This document shows positions 10,258-23,109 of a stretch of 64,000 bases of DNA, in pieces. The stretch comes from Escherichia coli (GTDB taxonomy: Bacteria; Pseudomonadota; Gammaproteobacteria; Enterobacterales; Enterobacteriaceae). Location: NCBI RefSeq assembly GCF_048403405.1, contig NZ_CP183129.1; one strand, 5' to 3'. The position numbers were made by a program, and so were the translations under genes. Positions within the stretch are counted from its first letter, which is position 1, and each line of letters begins with the position of its first letter. The notes under the pieces are model-generated. The model was not told where the DNA came from. It saw nothing but the letters and a program-made list of their open reading frames with translations, and searched no databases.

Positions 10258-10614
10258 GGAGTTTACTCACATCTGACAAAATCAATATAAACAGCCCCTC
10301 CGGAGAGGGGCTGGAGAGTGGCGCTATGTGCCATTGCATGGTGCCGGGTGCCTCCCGGTGAATTCAGTACCAGCACCTGAATCCGCGATTATCCCATATA
10401 CCTACTCGCTGATTGCCCCTCCGCACAGGGGGATTCACCATGCCAGTTTCTTTTAACAAACTCCCCGCAAACCAGACAACAGTCAACCGCCTGAATTGTG
10501 AAGTATTTAAAAATTTCTCCCGCTAACTGATACCCGGCTAACAGTCTGGCGTTTTCTTTTTCAGCAACGGGAAAGCAACAACCACCACACCCACCAGCCG
10601 CCCATTTACCACAA

Positions 10615-13960: not shown

Positions 13961-14116
13961 TTACTCCTCAGGTTCGTAAGCTGTGAAGACAGCGACCTCC
14001 GTCTGGCCGGTTCGGATTCGTACCTCGCAGAGGTCTTTCCTCGTTACCAGTGCCGTCACTATGACGGTTAAACAGATGACGATCAGGGCGATTAACATCG
14101 CCTTTTGCTGCTTCAT
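13961..14116 (-). CDS. Hok-family type I toxin (51 aa)
   Basis: Below ORF-track length cut-off; my translation MKQQKAMLIALIVICLTVIVTALVTRKDLCEVRIRTGQTEVAVFTAYEPEE is the canonical Hok/HokD sequence. Confidence 0.85.
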   Translation of the reverse strand: MKQQKAMLIALIVICLTVIVTALVTRKDLCEVRIRTGQTEVAVFTAYEPEE

Positions 14117-14129
14117 AGCCTGCTTCTCC

Positions 14130-14235
14130 TTGACCTTTCGGTCCGTAAGAGGCTAATCTCTATGTGTCGCATAGATATGGCCTCAGATTAATGTTAAGCG
14201 TCTTGCAGGACGCGTAATGTTAACTGGGGCTTTTC
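14130..14235 (+). ncRNA. Putative Sok-like antisense RNA with its promoter, antisense to hok leader
   Basis: TTGACC-17/18nt-TAATCT promoter on plus strand overlapping hok translation start; short hairpin GCGUC…GACGC downstream; inferred from hok/sok architecture. Confidence 0.3.
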
Positions 14236-14374
14236 TCTATCTGCCTTTTGGTGTTCATGCCTGAGACAGATAGCCTCAAGCACCCGCAGTTATTCTACTT
14301 AACTAAGATTTCCCCGCAAACCGTTTTTGTCCGGCACAGTAAATATCCAACTAAACCAATGGCGTTCGCTGTAT

Positions 14375-18824: not shown

Positions 18825-19490
18825 TCAAATAAAACCAGCTGCCTTCCGGCGTTCGTATTCCTGTTTCAGCCGTTCAATTGGCGTTGGCCCTTGCGGGTGT
18901 TTCGCCCCTTCCAGTTGTCGTCGCACTGGCGGAACACTCATCCCGTTACCAACATGCTTTGCCCATTTCGTCAGTTGCCGTTCTGCAAGTCGTTTTAACT
19001 CACCCTGCGTCATCTGGCGCTCAATCCCTCTGGTACGCATTTCGAGGCAGATGTGGTACAGCACAGGCTGAGGCCACGGATATTTGTCGCTTCCGTCATA
19101 TCGCCAGGACTCATCACGCCAGCGGCGGTACTCCTCCATCACAGCATCCACCGTCAGGCCAAATGGATTGGCCCCGCTTTCTGAAATCAGCGCCACAAAC
19201 TCAGCCAGGTCCGGAGGCCATGTTTCACCCGCCCGGCAGCGGTCCATGCACTGGCGGCAGACCTGTCGGATTTGCTGCTCAGTCATCGCGCCAATCTGTG
19301 CAATCCAGAGCTTCGAAGGTGCGGCCCCGTTCTTCTGGGTCCAGCGGTTCGAATAAACCTCCCCCATGAGTTCCCACAGCTTCCAGACCGTTTCCGTCGC
19401 TGATAAATCCGTTTTCACGTTCCCACTGCTCACGTGCTGCCCGAATTTCCTGAACTGCCCGTGATGCGGTGCCACCTGGTGCTGCTGCAT
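18825..19490 (-). CDS. Replication protein P-like (helicase loader); start uncertain
   Basis: …WPPDLAEFVAL…KYPWPQP… resembles lambda P; ORF overlaps 3' end of O by about 210 nt; internal starts at 19370 or 19286 possible. Confidence 0.65.
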   Translation of the reverse strand: MQQHQVAPHHGQFRKFGQHVSSGNVKTDLSATETVWKLWELMGEVYSNRWTQKNGAAPSKLWIAQIGAMTEQQIRQVCRQCMDRCRAGETWPPDLAEFVALISESGANPFGLTVDAVMEEYRRWRDESWRYDGSDKYPWPQPVLYHICLEMRTRGIERQMTQGELKRLAERQLTKWAKHVGNGMSVPPVRRQLEGAKHPQGPTPIERLKQEYERRKAAGFI

Positions 19491-20319
19491 GGTTTACCCC
19501 CTTGCTGACTGGTTTAACCTGCGCCCTGACGTGATTTACGTGACGGGCGAATTTCTGCTCCCACTGAATCTGCGTAAACACTTTCCCCTCCGCTGCCCAG
19601 TAGTCCCGGAAGGCGGCAAGTTCAGCAGGTGTAAATTCTGTCTCCGGCAAAGCCATCCCCCACAACGCAGCCCGTCGTCGAAAATCCCGTGACGGATACC
19701 AGCTATCGGTCATCGGAAATTTTCCGATGGGTTCGCTCAGGCCATCCAGGAATACAAGGGGTGCTGCCTGTAACGACAAAACTTCCTGCTCACTGGTCGG
19801 AGCACTCTCGCGTGCGTTATGTGTGGGGTTTAGATCTTTGGGTTCCTTTGGGTTCCGTGATCCGTTTTTGGGTGTCTTTGATGGAAAATTTGGGTGTCTT
19901 TGGTTATTTTCCATGCAGCTAAGAGTTCCGTTTTTGGGTCTGTTTTGTGCTGAAACATAACCATTTTCGGTACTGTTTTTATTAACAGCACCAATTTTAC
20001 CCACCTTTAAAGACTCCCGTTTTTGGGTGTATTCAGGCTCGGCAACACTTTCTTCTACACCGATAAGTCGGTACACCACAATTTGCTTTGTTCTGCCTTT
20101 TCTCTCACCGGTATCAACAATTAACCCAATCTCCATCAGGTGTCGTAAGCTGTCCTGCACAGTCTTTTTGTTCAGTTCCGTTACTTCTGCCAGTGCAGAT
20201 ACAGACGGGTATGCACACAAATCGGCACCGCACATATCAGCAAGCCAGGTCAATACAGACTTACTGGATGAACTGCCGGTTTTCACCTTTTTAGCCCATC
20301 GTAGTGCATCGATACTCAT
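19279..20319 (-). CDS. Replication initiator O-like protein with N-terminal HTH domain
   Basis: ATG 20319 with AGGGGT upstream (MSIDALRWAKK…); iteron repeats inside the gene. Confidence 0.75.
   Translation of the reverse strand: MSIDALRWAKKVKTGSSSSKSVLTWLADMCGADLCAYPSVSALAEVTELNKKTVQDSLRHLMEIGLIVDTGERKGRTKQIVVYRLIGVEESVAEPEYTQKRESLKVGKIGAVNKNSTENGYVSAQNRPKNGTLSCMENNQRHPNFPSKTPKNGSRNPKEPKDLNPTHNARESAPTSEQEVLSLQAAPLVFLDGLSEPIGKFPMTDSWYPSRDFRRRAALWGMALPETEFTPAELAAFRDYWAAEGKVFTQIQWEQKFARHVNHVRAQVKPVSKGVNHAAAPGGTASRAVQEIRAAREQWERENGFISDGNGLEAVGTHGGGLFEPLDPEERGRTFEALDCTDWRDD
19835..20035. repeat. Putative replication origin iterons inside O gene
   Basis: Repeated CCGTTTTTGGGTGT-like units at 19861..19876, 19926..19942, 20016..20032 plus TTTGGGTTCC/TTTGGGTGTC partial copies; adjacent A/T-rich stretch. 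Confidence 0.6.
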
Positions 20320-20842
20320 ACAAACCCCTGGCAGACATTTGTTTATCTGCAAAGTAATATTGATATTGCTGACGATACGCATGCTTGAAAGCAATAGCTT
20401 TTTCTATAAGCTCGTCAGTCTCACGTTCCACAACAGCTGGATCCGCAAAAAGCAGCCCGGACTCCACCACATCGCCATATTCTTTGTTTAATCCGGCGAT
20501 CATGTACGTAATGCTTTTTCCATCACTGATCTCACGATACAACCTGAAATCACTAATTCGGATAGCCTCCATAATTGCCGGAATCAGCGCCGTGAATTTT
20601 TTCCGCTTATCCCTGGTGTCGATAGCTTTCCAGCGTTCGAATATCTTCACCCGGTTAACGCCCAGCGCCCGTTGATCAACCTCGCCATCATTAAACGTGA
20701 CGCGTTGAACATCGATGTTCGGGCGTTCTTTCAGAGCCCAGAATGCTTCCGTGATTAATATCGTCGCTTGCTCCTGTGTCATTCCTGGTCGACATACCCA
20801 GGCATCCAGAGCCTCACAAACCTGTTCAGGGGTGATTTTCAT
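20291..20842 (-). CDS. Early regulatory protein, possibly YdaT-like
   Basis: 183 aa directly downstream of cro-like gene; …KRKKFTALIPAIMEAIR… resembles what I recall of YdaT; low certainty. Confidence 0.5.
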   Translation of the reverse strand: MKITPEQVCEALDAWVCRPGMTQEQATILITEAFWALKERPNIDVQRVTFNDGEVDQRALGVNRVKIFERWKAIDTRDKRKKFTALIPAIMEAIRISDFRLYREISDGKSITYMIAGLNKEYGDVVESGLLFADPAVVERETDELIEKAIAFKHAYRQQYQYYFADKQMSARGLYEYRCTTMG

Positions 20843-21053
20843 TGTTCAACCGCCCCGCCCGCTTTGCCTTACGATATTCGTCATAAACTTTGGGGTCGTA
20901 CTGAAGTTCCCCGCCGGATGCCTCCTGTAGACGCATCGCGCGACCTTCAGGAACCAGTTTCCCCCATGCAGCAACGCTTGCCAGCCTAACTCCTGCGGCA
21001 TTGGCAAGCTTTGTTTTGCTGCCAAAAAACGCTATAGCATCAATTTTCAACAT
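20826..21053 (-). CDS. Cro-like repressor (DicC/YdaS type)
   Basis: 75 aa MLKIDAIAFFGSKTKLANAAGV…; divergent from DicA-like repressor. Confidence 0.75.
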   Translation of the reverse strand: MLKIDAIAFFGSKTKLANAAGVRLASVAAWGKLVPEGRAMRLQEASGGELQYDPKVYDEYRKAKRAGRLNNENHP

Positions 21054-21129: not shown

Positions 21130-21537
21130 ATGAAAAACGAAACCTTCGGTGCTCGCCTCTTATACAGGCGTAAAAAATTAAAACTGTCTCAGGCCGCATT
21201 AGGTAAGCTGGTCAAAGTGGCTCACGTAACAATTTCTCAATGGGAAAGAGATGAAACACAGCCAGCGGGGAAGAGATTATTCGCACTGAGCCAGGCGCTT
21301 CAGTGCTCGCCGACTTGGCTTCTTTTTGGAGATGAAGATAAGCAACCAGGCGAACCGATCCCAGATAATCAGCCAGTTAATCTGACAGAAGATCAAAAAG
21401 AGTTGCTTCAACTGTTCGACGCACTGCCTGAGTCAGAGCAAAAGGCTCTGTTGTCAGAGATGCGTGCTCGAGTTGAGAATTTCAACAAACTTTTTGAAGA
21501 ACTACTCAAAGCTCGCAAAAGAAGCGCAAATAAATAA
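21130..21537 (+). CDS. DicA-like XRE-family repressor (cI analogue)
   Basis: 135 aa; HTH KLSQAALGKLVKVAHVTISQWERDET. Confidence 0.8.
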   Translation: MKNETFGARLLYRRKKLKLSQAALGKLVKVAHVTISQWERDETQPAGKRLFALSQALQCSPTWLLFGDEDKQPGEPIPDNQPVNLTEDQKELLQLFDALPESEQKALLSEMRARVENFNKLFEELLKARKRSANK

Positions 21538-22282: not shown

Positions 22283-22581
22283 TTTATTCACAGGTGAGGT
22301 AGAGTGCGTGCGCCGGACACGGATAAGAATCCGGCACTGACAGTTTACTAAAAAGGATATATCCCTGAAAAGTCAGGGCATAACACGAAAGCGCCCGGCG
22401 AAGTTAGTCTCTCTGTATAGGTCGTCGTTAAATTTAATTCGATCGTGCGCTTCCGGTTGTGGCAATCCGCGAAATGGCGCGGCGGTAAGTATGGCTGGGG
22501 TTTCCTCCATTGCTCCAGAAAATGCACCGGGTTGTCAGGTTGACCATACGCTTAAGTGACAGCCCCGCCACAATACCCATG

Positions 22582-22633
22582 TGTAGTCTTTGGTGGCATC
22601 AGTTCTACTCCGTGACTGCTCTGCCACCCTTTT
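22582..22633 (+). ncRNA. dicF: DicF-like small RNA
   Basis: GGTGGCATCAGTTCTACTCCGTGACTGCTCTGCCACCC + TTTTT closely matches the K-12 DicF sequence as I recall it, with compensating stem changes; sits between ydfA-like genes and dicB. Confidence 0.75.
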
Positions 22634-23109
22634 TAAAGTGAATTTTGTGATGCGGTGAATGCGGCTAAGCGCACGCGGAACAGTTAAAACCAAAAACAGT
22701 GTTATGGGTGGATTCTCTGTATCCGGCGTTAATTGTTAACTGGTTAACGTCACCTGGAGGCACCAGGCACCGCATCAACAAAGTTCACTTCGGTGATGAA
22801 AGGTAAGAGAAAATGTTGAATGTAGCTATTGAAAACCAGAACGGGTGGAATTATAGTGCACCTGCACCTCATAAAACGGGTGCCGGGCGTGGAAACCCGG
22901 AATTCAATCAAGCGCATAACCGCGCTCAGGCGGTTTTTTTATGCGTCAAGCACAGCCACATTCAGATTATGGTGGGGCGTGCAGGGCAGCTGCAAGGCTG
23001 GCCGGATTCTTGGTTGACCGGTATTTCCACCCCTGTACGCCTCACCACCCTTATGGTCGTGGAAAACCTTGGTGGTGAGTTATTAATACTCAACCAAGAG
23101 GCTGCCATT

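What the first reader, a model, noticed from the sequence alone, without database searches (positions are those of the whole stretch)
19835..20035. Iteron array inside the O gene
At least three copies of CCGTTTTTGGGTGT plus related TTTGGGT(T/G)(C/T)C units lie within the O coding region next to an A/T-rich stretch, the same layout as ori-lambda. This marks the likely replication origin and suggests the replication module is intact.
Basis: seen in the sequence. Interest (0 to 1): 0.25.

Follow-up and report, generated by a model that had tools for sequence, protein, structure and literature searches.

The report
Prophage replication origin repeats inside initiator gene
A cluster of short DNA repeats inside a prophage's replication-initiator gene is real and is very probably the binding-site array of that prophage's replication origin, an ordinary lambda-style arrangement carried by a lambda O-like gene that has a different C-terminal half.

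Summary
All six TTTGGGT heptamers in the 64-kb window lie in 19837-20028. The 14-mer CCGTTTTTGGGTGT occurs twice exactly and once with one mismatch, and nowhere else at up to 2 mismatches.

The repeats sit in codons 97-165 of a 346-aa gene on the minus strand (19279-20319). This gene sits where lambda O would, in the order cI / cro / ydaT-like / this gene / lambda-P-like. It is not a Pfam lambda-O member. It has an HTH_36-type winged helix, a disordered linker encoded by the repeats, and a DnaT ssDNA-binding domain.

The repeats are constrained as DNA, not as peptide:
- They are read in all three frames.
- In 37 clusters of relatives from Escherichia, Edwardsiella, Vibrio, Acinetobacter and Burkholderia phages and uncultivated viral contigs, CCCAAAAACGG is about 53-fold enriched at the same place in the gene.
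- All 56 PKNG motifs there use Pro=CCC, against 12% CCC elsewhere in those genes.

The core resembles lambda's iteron. Edwardsiella phage GF-2 joins this N-terminal domain and its repeats to a lambda-O C-terminus.

The "same layout as ori-lambda" claim is only partly right. The A/T-rich stretch is modest (70% at most), lies inside the array, and no A/T-rich tract follows the last iteron. Origin activity is inferred, not shown. This is a new member of a known kind, of low interest.

The parts
19279..20319 (-). Replication initiator gene (346 aa from the ATG; functional counterpart of lambda O). It has an N-terminal winged helix, a disordered linker and a DnaT-like ssDNA-binding domain.
   Evidence: ORF. 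PGAP CDS in the 100%-identical strain 7/2. Pfam DnaT PF17948 at 61.5 bits and HTH_36 at 20.8-23.5 bits, just below the cut-off of 25. AlphaFold model. Foldseek match to DnaT ssDNA-binding domain structures 6aeq/4ou6 at 54-58% identity and TM 0.9.
20035..20319 (-). N-terminal winged-helix domain (aa 1-95), the predicted iteron-binding domain.
   Evidence: pLDDT is about 86-97. Helices are H3-11, H17-29, H40-47 and H51-64, with a wing at E67-74/E80-85. Relatives score 42-49 bits on HTH_36. The motif DTGE(R/K)xGxT is conserved (D, T, G, G and T invariant; E and R nearly so).
20014..20033 (-). Iteron I1: AATACACCCAAAAACGGGAG, read as Y-T-Q-K-R-E.
   Evidence: Invariant in 6 E. coli variants. Relatives have a first copy at the same gene position (nt 271-292).
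19958..19977 (-). Degenerate iteron I2: AACAGTACCGAAAATGGTTA.
   Evidence: Three of the six aligned variants have ACCGAAAACGG here, which is closer to the family consensus.
19925..19944 (-). Iteron I3: AACAGACCCAAAAACGGAAC, read as R-P-K-N-G-T.
   Evidence: This is the most variable copy among the E. coli variants.
19881..19900 (-). Variant iteron I4: AAGACACCCAAATTTTCCAT. The left half is conserved and the right half is TTCC instead of CGG.
   Evidence: The same CCCAAAtTTCC or CCGTTTTTCC variant recurs near the 3' end of the arrays of relatives L120, L134, L149, L239 and L232.
19859..19878 (-). Iteron I5: AAGACACCCAAAAACGGATC, read as T-P-K-N-G-S.
   Evidence: Invariant in 6 variants.
19836..19855 (-). 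Perfect tandem GAACCCAAAG x2. It corresponds to a second kind of 10-12-nt unit (GGAAYC / GAATCT...) that follows the last iteron in relatives.
   Evidence: One unit is deleted in strain 06_3044, which frameshifts and splits the gene.
19943..20010 (.). Most A/T-rich part of the gene (65-70% A+T per 40 bp), between I1 and I3. It is a candidate unwinding region, but this is weak.
   Evidence: In the closest relatives (L134, L147) the A/T maximum also lies inside the array. In at least 13 other clusters it lies 20-140 nt after the last iteron, at 70-88% A+T.
19519..19719 (-). DnaT-like ssDNA-binding domain (aa 201-267).
   Evidence: Pfam PF17948 E=6.5e-17. Foldseek 6aeq_A E=1.9e-6, 58% identity, rmsd 1.1 A.
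18825..19286 (-). Lambda-P-family gene (helicase loader). The PGAP start is at 19286, but the ORF is open upstream to 19490.
   Evidence: Pfam PF06992 at 59.3 bits. BLASTP to lambda P gives E=2e-6. PGAP annotation.
20291..21053 (-). Upstream genes of the same rightward-type operon: a Cro/DicC-like gene (20826-21053) and a YdaT-like gene (20291-20842).
   Evidence: Pfam P22_Cro at 50 bits and YdaT_toxin at 25 bits. PGAP annotation.
21130..21537 (+). Divergent CI/DicA-like repressor gene.
   Evidence: Pfam HTH_3 at 52.7 bits. PGAP annotation.

Best explanation
The repeats are iterons, the binding sites of the origin of replication of a lambdoid prophage, embedded in the gene for the protein that binds them. 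The prophage is integrated next to potC in an E. coli chromosome.

Shown here:
- There is a strand-specific array of three full copies of A(C/G)ACCCAAAAACGG plus variant copies. It is encoded in the disordered linker between an N-terminal winged-helix domain and a C-terminal DnaT-type ssDNA-binding domain.
- The motif is maintained as DNA and not as peptide, at the same position in relatives as low as 37-49% identical in the N-terminal domain.
- A lambda-P-family gene follows immediately.

Inferred:
- After derepression, transcription from the cro-side promoter produces the initiator.
- Its winged-helix domains bind the iterons, probably as dimers on the short CCC...GGG dyad, and wrap the DNA into an O-some-like complex.
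- A nearby stretch of low stability opens. The internal 65-70% A/T spacer is the best candidate.
- The DnaT-like domain holds the single strand, and the P-like protein delivers host DnaB, starting theta replication.
For: 1. Clustering. All 6 TTTGGGT sites and all 3 near-exact 14-mers in 64 kb lie in 192 nt.

2. DNA-level constraint.
- The CC(C/G)AAA core starts at all three codon positions among the seven copies.
- In 37 clusters of relatives, CCCAAAAACGG at up to 2 mismatches occurs at 11.4 per kb in the post-domain linker on the coding strand, against 0.21 per kb elsewhere.
- 29 of 37 clusters have at least 3 copies. 31 of 36 clusters with hits use at least 2 reading frames.
- All 56 PKNG peptides in those linkers are encoded CCC-AAA-AA(C)-GGN. 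CCC is used 56/56 times against 29/249 Pro codons elsewhere in the same genes. AAA is used 56/56 times against 60% elsewhere.

3. Likeness to lambda. Lambda's iterons ATCCCTCAAAACGAGGGA and ATCCCTCAAATTGGGGGAT share the CCC-AAAA(C/T)-GGG grammar and the same place after the winged helix. The comparable copies are phiV10 ATCCCAAAAACGGGAT and GF-2 ATCCCAAAATTGGGAT.

4. Modularity.
- GF-2 gp62 joins this N-terminal domain and its iterons to a lambda-O-type C-terminus. It aligns with lambda-type O proteins from aa 41/60 to the end at 44-49% identity.
- Homology of the window gene to Rac-type ydaU, which has a DUF1376 N-terminus and no such repeats, stops at 19839, exactly at the array's edge.

5. 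Protein architecture. AlphaFold gives a confident winged helix (aa 1-95), a disordered region at aa 97-193 and a DnaT domain. A P-family gene lies downstream.

6. Literature.
- Lambda's ori is 4 iterons plus an AT-rich tract in the middle of O (PMC7466680, PMC3349717).
- P22 and L gene 18 carry their own in-gene repeats (10.1101/2020.10.05.325894).
- HTH_36 + DnaT_C with a P-like partner is described as derived from lambda O/P, and the domesticated chromosomal copies (dopC) have no iterons (PMC5509034). So the protein does not need the repeats.
Against: - There is no experimental evidence of binding or origin activity for this family in anything I could search.
- There is no lambda-like strong A/T-rich tract. 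The maximum is 70% A+T, it is internal, and the 40 bp after the last iteron are 50-57% A+T.
- Only I1 has a clear CCC...GGG dyad. The iterons are dispersed with spacings of 57, 32, 44, 22, 20 and 10 nt rather than lambda's regular 20-24 nt.
- Homology of the N-terminal domain to lambda O is weak when tested directly: hhalign E=0.011 with probability 3.9%, and Pfam Phage_rep_O far below its cut-off.
- Close E. coli variants are at least 95% identical, so they say little about selection.
Confidence: 0.8

Rival explanations
1. The initiator does bind these sites, but they serve mainly in control (autoregulation of the operon, titration or handcuffing, exclusion of related phages). Strand opening and replication start happen elsewhere in the prophage.
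For: No strong A/T-rich unwinding element adjoins the array. In lambda, plasmid-borne iterons without the AT-rich tract are enough to inhibit replication of related phages (PMC3349717). Up to 4 copies of this module occur in one genome, so cross-talk is possible.
Against: In every characterised lambdoid case the in-gene iterons are the origin (PMC7466680). In at least 13 related clusters an A/T-rich tract of 70-88% directly follows the array, as in lambda. No other repeat array was seen in the replication region.
Confidence: 0.1
2. The array is a genuine origin architecture, but in this prophage lineage it is a decaying relic. The downstream unwinding tract was lost at the mosaic junction with the Rac-type C-terminal module, so the module no longer fires.
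For: The mosaic junction lies right at the array's 3' edge. The post-iteron region is not A/T-rich here, unlike in many relatives. The same prophage carries pseudogenes (DicB, YdfR and DUF1737 fragments). One strain has a 10-bp slippage that splits the gene.
Against: The N-terminal domain plus array is at least 95% identical in 907 of 5426 complete E. coli genomes, with the ORF intact in nearly all. The closest clades (L120, L134, L147) keep the same layout at only about 55% protein identity, which argues for maintenance. The initiator and P ORFs are intact.
Confidence: 0.08
3. The DNA repeats are only a by-product of a repetitive, low-complexity peptide linker (PKNG-type repeats) and have no role as DNA.
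For: The array encodes P-K-N-G-like peptides in a region predicted to be disordered. In some relatives (phiV10, H20) the spacings are multiples of 3.
Against: The same DNA core is read in three frames in the window and in at least 2 frames in 31 of 36 clusters. Synonymous sites are frozen: CCC 56/56 against 12% background. The domesticated dopC lacks the repeats (PMC5509034).
Confidence: 0.02

Closest known systems
ori-lambda inside gene O of phage lambda and of Stx phages 933W and P27
   Same: - Direct repeats lie inside the initiator gene, just after its winged-helix DNA-binding domain, and encode the inter-domain linker.
- The core grammar is CCC-AAAA(C/T)-GGG.
- A P-family helicase-loader gene follows.
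- The gene lies in the cro-side early operon.
   Different: - The initiator fails Pfam Phage_rep_O, and its C-terminal half is a DnaT ssDNA-binding domain instead of the lambda O C-terminus.
- There are 3 full plus 2 variant iterons spread over about 175 bp, followed by a 10-bp tandem. Lambda has 4 contiguous 18-bp iterons and the Stx phages have 6.
- The dyad arms are shorter.
- There is no 38-bp high-A/T tract after the array.
HTH_36 + DnaT_C 'O-like' proteins with a P-like partner (phage progenitors of DopC/DopE, Brezellec et al. 2017, PMC5509034); phiV10 gp43/gp44
   Same: The domain architecture and gene order are the same. phiV10 gp43 is 40% identical over aa 33-261 and carries 6-7 copies of CCCAAAAACGGGA at the same place.
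   Different: The domesticated dopC has no iterons. I did not find the in-gene iteron array of the phage forms described in the papers I could search. The window protein has an extra C-terminal tail of about 70 aa that overlaps the P reading frame.
Edwardsiella phage GF-2 gp62 ('replication initiation O-like')
   Same: It has the same N-terminal domain family (39-43% identity) and iterons at the same position (ATCCCAAAATTGGGAT x3 plus ACCCAAAAACGGGAT).
   Different: Its C-terminal half is of lambda-O type. An A/T-rich tract follows the array.
P22 gene 18 and phage L gene 18 in-gene repeats
   Same: The principle is the same: each initiator type has its own repeats inside its coding region (10.1101/2020.10.05.325894).
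   Different: The repeat sequences differ (L: TGTCCAACGGA), and the partner is a DnaB-type helicase (gp12) rather than a P-type loader.
Iteron plasmids (RepA/pi/TrfA-type winged-helix initiators)
   Same: Winged-helix initiators bind several direct repeats next to an unwinding element, and titration or handcuffing is possible.
   Different: Plasmid iterons lie outside the rep gene, and there is no sequence relationship tested here.

Membership tests
lambda-type origin (ori-lambda kind) | Array of at least 3-4 direct repeats (iterons) recognised by the initiator | tested here: met
   There are three copies of A(C/G)ACCCAAAAACGG at up to 1 mismatch, plus 2 variant copies and a 10-bp tandem. All lie on one strand within 19836-20033. 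Binding itself was not tested.
lambda-type origin (ori-lambda kind) | Array lies inside the initiator's own coding region, between its two domains | tested here: met
   The array spans gene nt 290-484 of 1041, which is aa 97-165. This falls within the disordered stretch aa 97-193, between the winged helix (aa 1-95) and the DnaT domain (aa 201-267).
lambda-type origin (ori-lambda kind) | Each iteron is an imperfect inverted repeat of about 18-19 bp | tested here: inconclusive
   I1 has CACCC...GGGAG arms matching at 4 of 5 positions. I3 and I5 have weaker arms, and I4 has none. Relatives such as phiV10 and GF-2 have clear ATCCC...GGGAT dyads.
lambda-type origin (ori-lambda kind) | Strongly A/T-rich tract (about 38-40 bp) directly after the last iteron | tested here: not met
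   The 40 bp after I5 are 50-57% A+T. The only A/T-rich stretch (65-70%) lies between I1 and I3. The feature is present in at least 13 of 37 related clusters.
lambda-type origin (ori-lambda kind) | Initiator belongs to the lambda O family (Pfam PF04492 Phage_rep_O) | tested here: not met
   The score is 14.6 bits against a cut-off of 28.7. BLASTP to lambda O is not significant. hhalign gives E=0.011 with probability 3.9%. There is an indirect link through GF-2 gp62.
lambda-type origin (ori-lambda kind) | Adjacent P-family helicase-loader gene | tested here: met
   Pfam PF06992 scores 59.3 bits against a cut-off of 26. BLASTP to lambda P gives E=2e-6.
lambda-type origin (ori-lambda kind) | Initiator binding to the repeats and origin-dependent replication | not testable with these tools
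   This needs EMSA or footprinting and a mini-replicon assay.
HTH_36 + DnaT_C 'O-like' initiators (DopC progenitor type) | N-terminal HTH_36 winged helix | tested here: inconclusive
   The window protein scores 20.8-23.5 bits against a cut-off of 25. Its relatives at 39-48% identity score 42-49 bits. The model shows a confident winged helix, and Foldseek finds generic winged-helix regulators.
HTH_36 + DnaT_C 'O-like' initiators (DopC progenitor type) | C-terminal DnaT ssDNA-binding domain | tested here: met
   Pfam PF17948 scores 61.5 bits against a cut-off of 25. Foldseek matches 6aeq_A and 4ou6_B at 54-58% identity, TM 0.89-0.91 and rmsd about 1 A.
HTH_36 + DnaT_C 'O-like' initiators (DopC progenitor type) | In-gene CCCAAAAACGG-type repeats after the winged helix (a feature defined here for the phage-borne forms) | tested here: met
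   The window has 3 consensus hits. 29 of 37 clusters have at least 3. Enrichment is 53-fold. Synonymous sites are frozen.

The most novel reading that the evidence does not exclude
The window exemplifies a widespread origin class that has not been described as such. In this class a winged-helix (HTH_36-type) initiator recognises one nearly invariant core, CCCAAAAACGG, in relatives from Escherichia, Edwardsiella, Vibrio, Acinetobacter and Burkholderia phages and uncultivated viral contigs. This contrasts with the lambda-type O genes examined here, whose iteron arms differ from phage to phage.

In the E. coli branch this origin-binding module is fused to a copy of the host DnaT ssDNA-binding domain (54-58% identical). 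That fusion may feed origin opening into helicase loading by a route different from lambda O-P. It may also let co-resident prophages that carry the same module (up to 4 per genome) fire or titrate each other's origins.
Probability: 0.3. Interest if true: 0.45.

Novelty: new member of a known kind. Interest (0 to 1): 0.25.

Why it matters
- It places the probable replication origin of a very common E. coli prophage replication module. The module is in 906 of 5426 complete genomes, including O157:H7, O26, O111 and O145 STEC.
- It shows that the gene PGAP labels only 'DnaT-like ssDNA-binding domain-containing protein' is the origin-binding initiator.
- Prophage replication affects induction yield and, in Stx phages, toxin output. 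Papers that type Stx-phage replication regions (Eru types, some of which pair a YdaT-like gene with an HTH_36 protein; I did not match this module to any of them) do not mention origins.
- Beyond that, the finding is textbook lambda biology applied to a domain-swapped initiator.

Tried and rejected
- **Peptide-repeat explanation.** Rejected by frame usage and codon analysis.
- **Direct homology to lambda O.** BLASTP was not significant, Pfam Phage_rep_O was below its cut-off, and hhalign was weak. Only the indirect link through GF-2 holds.
- **Own repeats in Rac-SA53 ydaU, which shares the C-terminal half.** None were convincing. Its N-terminal part has no detectable DNA similarity to the window's. 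RefSeq labels one partly matching E. coli gene a DUF1376 domain protein. I did not scan ydaU itself.
- **E. coli variants for selection on the iterons.** All are at least 95% identical, so this is nearly uninformative.
- **First viral-contig scan.** It returned only near-identical E. coli prophages. Re-ordering the alignment gave diversity.
- **Host-factor sites.** DnaA boxes gave only 1-mismatch hits, no IHF consensus was found, and there are two GATC sites. Nothing stands out.
- **Promoter and terminator scan of the region.** No promoter-like sites were found. The single terminator-like site lies at the end of P.
- **Helical phasing.** The spacings of 57, 32, 44, 22, 20 and 10 nt are only loosely multiples of 10-11, so I make no claim from them.
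- **Literature searches.** I searched for these iterons, the motif itself, and DnaT plus iterons. Nothing specific turned up.
- **H133 partial hit.** It is just a truncated prophage.
Full report
**1. Observation**

On the + strand, CCGTTTTTGGGTGT is exact at 19862-19875 and 20017-20030. CCGTTTTTGGGTCT is at 19928-19941. No other site in the 64-kb window matches at up to 2 mismatches on either strand. TTTGGGT occurs six times in the whole window, and all six lie on one strand within 19837-20028. The count itself is ordinary. The clustering has a rough chance probability of 5e-14.

Read on the coding (minus) strand, the units are:

| Unit | Coordinates | Sequence |
|---|---|---|
| I1 | 20033-20014 | AATACACCCAAAAACGGGAG |
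| I2 | 19977-19958 | AACAGTACCGAAAATGGTTA |
| I3 | 19944-19925 | AACAGACCCAAAAACGGAAC |
| I4 | 19900-19881 | AAGACACCCAAATTTTCCAT |
| I5 | 19878-19859 | AAGACACCCAAAAACGGATC |
| Tandem | 19855-19836 | GAACCCAAAG x2 (perfect) |

The A/T-rich stretch is real but modest. It reaches 65-70% A+T per 40 bp, in windows starting at 19943-19970, which is the top 2.3% of the window. It lies between I1 and I3. The 40 bp after I5 are 50-57% A+T.

**2. Genomic setting**

The array is inside a 346-aa ORF on the minus strand (19279-20319). The window DNA is 100% identical to E. coli strain 7/2. There the region is a lambdoid prophage next to potC, with integrase, excisionase, exonuclease, dicB, a Rha-family gene, a cI-like gene, cro, a ydaT-like gene, this gene, 'replication protein P', DUF1627, then Q, lysis and terminase genes.

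Pfam results are as follows:

- This gene: DnaT DNA-binding domain at 61.5 bits, and HTH_36 at 20.8-23.5 bits, just below the cut-off of 25.
- Downstream gene: Phage_lambda_P at 59.3 bits.
- Upstream genes: P22_Cro and YdaT families.

So the gene sits exactly where lambda O sits. It is not a Pfam Phage_rep_O member (14.6 bits against 28.7) and has no significant BLASTP match to lambda O.

The full-length gene is present in 906 of 5426 complete E. coli genomes, including O157:H7, O26, O111 and O145. It is 98.8% identical to the PPompW prophages of STEC O145:H28.

**3. Protein architecture**

An AlphaFold model built from a 16-sequence alignment shows three parts:

- A confident winged helix at aa 1-95 (pLDDT about 86-97).
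- A disordered stretch at aa 97-193 (pLDDT below 50 for most of it).
- A confident helical domain at aa 200-268.

Foldseek matches the last domain to crystal structures of the DnaT ssDNA-binding domain (6aeq, 4ou6) at 54-58% identity, TM 0.9 and rmsd about 1 A. The N-terminal domain matches generic winged-helix regulators. The iteron array (aa 97-165) therefore encodes the start of the flexible inter-domain linker.

**4. DNA element or peptide repeat?**

Three lines of evidence point to a DNA element.

(a) In the window, the CC(C/G)AAA core begins at codon position 1 (I3, I5, T2), position 2 (I1, I2) and position 3 (I4, T1). The same DNA is therefore translated as TQKR, PKNG, HPNF and NPKE.

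(b) I collected 244 loci that encode relatives of the N-terminal domain, from phage records and three IMG/VR scans. They fall into 37 clusters at 90% identity. The consensus CCCAAAAACGG at up to 2 mismatches gave these counts:

- 156 hits in the 13.7 kb just after the domain on the coding strand, or 11.4 per kb.
- 49 hits in 229 kb elsewhere on both strands, or 0.21 per kb.
- 29 of 37 clusters have at least 3 copies, and 34 of 37 have at least 2.
- The first copy usually starts at gene nt 271-292.
- Hits fall in codon frames 0/1/2 as 107/36/15, and 31 of 36 clusters use at least two frames.

(c) Every one of the 56 PKNG peptides in these linkers is encoded CCC-AAA-AA(C/T)-GGN. Pro is CCC 56/56 times, against 29/249 elsewhere in the same genes. 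Lys is AAA 56/56 times, against 60% elsewhere. Asn is AAC 54/56 times, against 61% elsewhere.

Frozen synonymous sites and frame independence show selection on the DNA sequence.

**5. Relation to lambda**

Lambda's annotated iterons are ATCCCTCAAAACGAGGGA, ATCCCCTAAAACGAGGGA, ATCCCTCAAATTGGGGGA and ATCCCTCAAAACAGGGGG. Related arrays read as follows:

- phiV10 gp43: GATCCCAAAAACGGGAT
- GF-2 gp62: GATCCCAAAATTGGGAT
- Vibrio phage H20: GGCCCGAAAACGGTAC
- PhiR12_2, a lambda-type O: TGTCACCAAAACGGTGACA

All sit just after the winged helix.

GF-2 gp62 has this family's N-terminal domain and iterons, but a C-terminal half that aligns with lambda O. tblastn aligns it from aa 41/60 to 280 with lambda-type O proteins at 44-49% identity. 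So the module made of N-terminal domain plus iterons is interchangeable with lambda O's origin-binding half.

Conversely, the window gene's C-terminal half is shared at about 90% nucleotide identity with Rac-type ydaU. That gene's N-terminal part has no DNA similarity to the window's and shows no such repeats. The homology stops at 19839, the very edge of the array.

Brezellec et al. 2017 (PMC5509034) describe HTH_36 + DnaT_C proteins paired with P-like proteins as derived from lambda O/P. They report that the domesticated chromosomal copies lack iterons. This fits the repeats being a requirement of the mobile replicon rather than of the protein.

**6. Differences from ori-lambda**

- Lambda has four contiguous 18-bp iterons followed by a 38-bp highly A/T-rich tract (PMC3349717, PMC7466680). 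Here the copies are spread over about 195 bp with spacings of 57, 32, 44, 22, 20 and 10 nt.
- Only I1 has a clear CCC...GGG dyad.
- No strong A/T-rich tract follows the array.
- After the last iteron, relatives carry a second kind of 10-12-nt repeat (GAATCT... or AACCAGTCAT...). It is often 70-88% A+T and is lambda-like in position in at least 13 of 37 clusters.
- In the window's clade (WIN, L120, L134, L147) this segment is short, A/C-rich and abuts the mosaic junction. The A/T maximum there is inside the array.

The unwinding site in this lineage is therefore uncertain.

**7. Variation**

Among six E. coli variants at 95-100% identity, I1 and I5 are invariant and I3 varies. In three of them I2 reads ACCGAAAACGG, closer to the consensus. 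Strain 06_3044 has lost one 10-bp tandem unit, which frameshifts and splits the gene. Divergence is too low to say more.

**8. Mechanism**

Shown: an array of conserved DNA motifs lies in the linker-coding part of a gene for a winged-helix plus ssDNA-binding protein, upstream of a P-family gene.

Inferred by analogy with lambda:

1. The N-terminal domain binds the iterons and forms an O-some-like complex.
2. Nearby DNA opens.
3. The DnaT-like domain binds the exposed single strand. Lambda O also binds ssDNA of its AT-rich region (PMC7466680).
4. The P-like protein brings DnaB.

**9. Novelty and literature**

I found no description of these iterons or of an origin for this module:

- The Eru typing papers (PMC8044961, PMC8951638) mention YdaT plus HTH_36 types but no origin.
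- A search for the motif itself found only unrelated papers.
- No classical, experimentally studied phage appears among the relatives of the N-terminal domain.

The principle is textbook. The instance is a new member with a swapped C-terminal domain, and interest is low. The mildly unusual point is how well the CCCAAAAACGG core is conserved across distant hosts.

**10. Verdict**

It needs correction on the gene's family and on the 'same layout' claim. Origin activity is unproven.

Noticed in passing
window 19286-19490 (minus strand): The P-family ORF stays open for 204 nt upstream of the PGAP start (19286), out of frame inside the 3' end of the initiator gene. Pfam P-domain homology begins 14 codons before the annotated start. 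Both frames stay open in Rac-SA53 at about 90% identity. The 8 substitutions in the overlap fall at initiator-frame codon positions 1/2/3 as 3/0/5, and at long-P-frame positions as 0/5/3. This could be an overlapping-gene arrangement or a mis-called start.
   Followed up: partly
window 19836-19855; L010:1163-1173: One unit of the perfect 10-bp tandem GAACCCAAAG is deleted in E. coli strain 06_3044. The gene is thereby split into a separate HTH protein and a DnaT-domain pseudogene, an example of slippage in the array.
   Followed up: yes
window 19839 (junction); L001:3001-3567: There is a mosaic boundary here. The C-terminal half of the gene (19279-19839) is about 85-93% identical to genes with a quite different N-terminal half, such as ydaU of phage Rac-SA53 (one E. 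coli match is annotated as a DUF1376 domain protein). The N-terminal half plus array exists in E. coli as essentially one allele (at least 95% identical in 907 genomes).
   Followed up: partly
L137:1501-2325 (IMGVR_UViG_3300021090_000059): One relative of the N-terminal domain has no CCCAAAAACGG copies. It carries four copies of GAAGCAGGTGCAG at the same place. Its wing motif is also altered (DTGDRKG) and it has other N-terminal changes. This looks like a specificity switch.
   Followed up: no
related loci, e.g. L239, L232, L143, L214 gene nt 440-500; L003:1810-1845: A second family-wide repeat type follows the last iteron. It consists of 10-12-nt units such as GAATCTNTCAAT or AACCAGTCATAT, often ending in AAAAATAAAAAA. 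It occupies the position of lambda's A/T-rich tract.
   Followed up: partly
window 22578-22629, 22864-22940, 22965-23052 (+): Rfam matches above gathering score to DicF, isrK and C4 antisense RNA lie in the immunity-left region next to the dicB and Rha genes.
   Followed up: no
window 14114-14285 and 10283-10472 (-): Rfam finds a sok antitoxin RNA, next to hokD in the matching annotation, and the sRNA STnc100 within the prophage.
   Followed up: no
E. coli genomes, e.g. NZ_CP015846.1 and other O157:H7 strains: Some genomes carry up to 4 places matching the N-terminal domain plus array, and up to 6 places matching some part of the whole gene. Several co-resident prophages may therefore share one origin specificity.
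   Followed up: no
L002:3547-3969 (PPompW_14040): PPompW prophages have the same initiator gene (98.8% identical). The next gene is annotated as a 423-bp 'phage replication protein', against 462 bp in the window. I did not check whether it is the same P-family gene.
   Followed up: no
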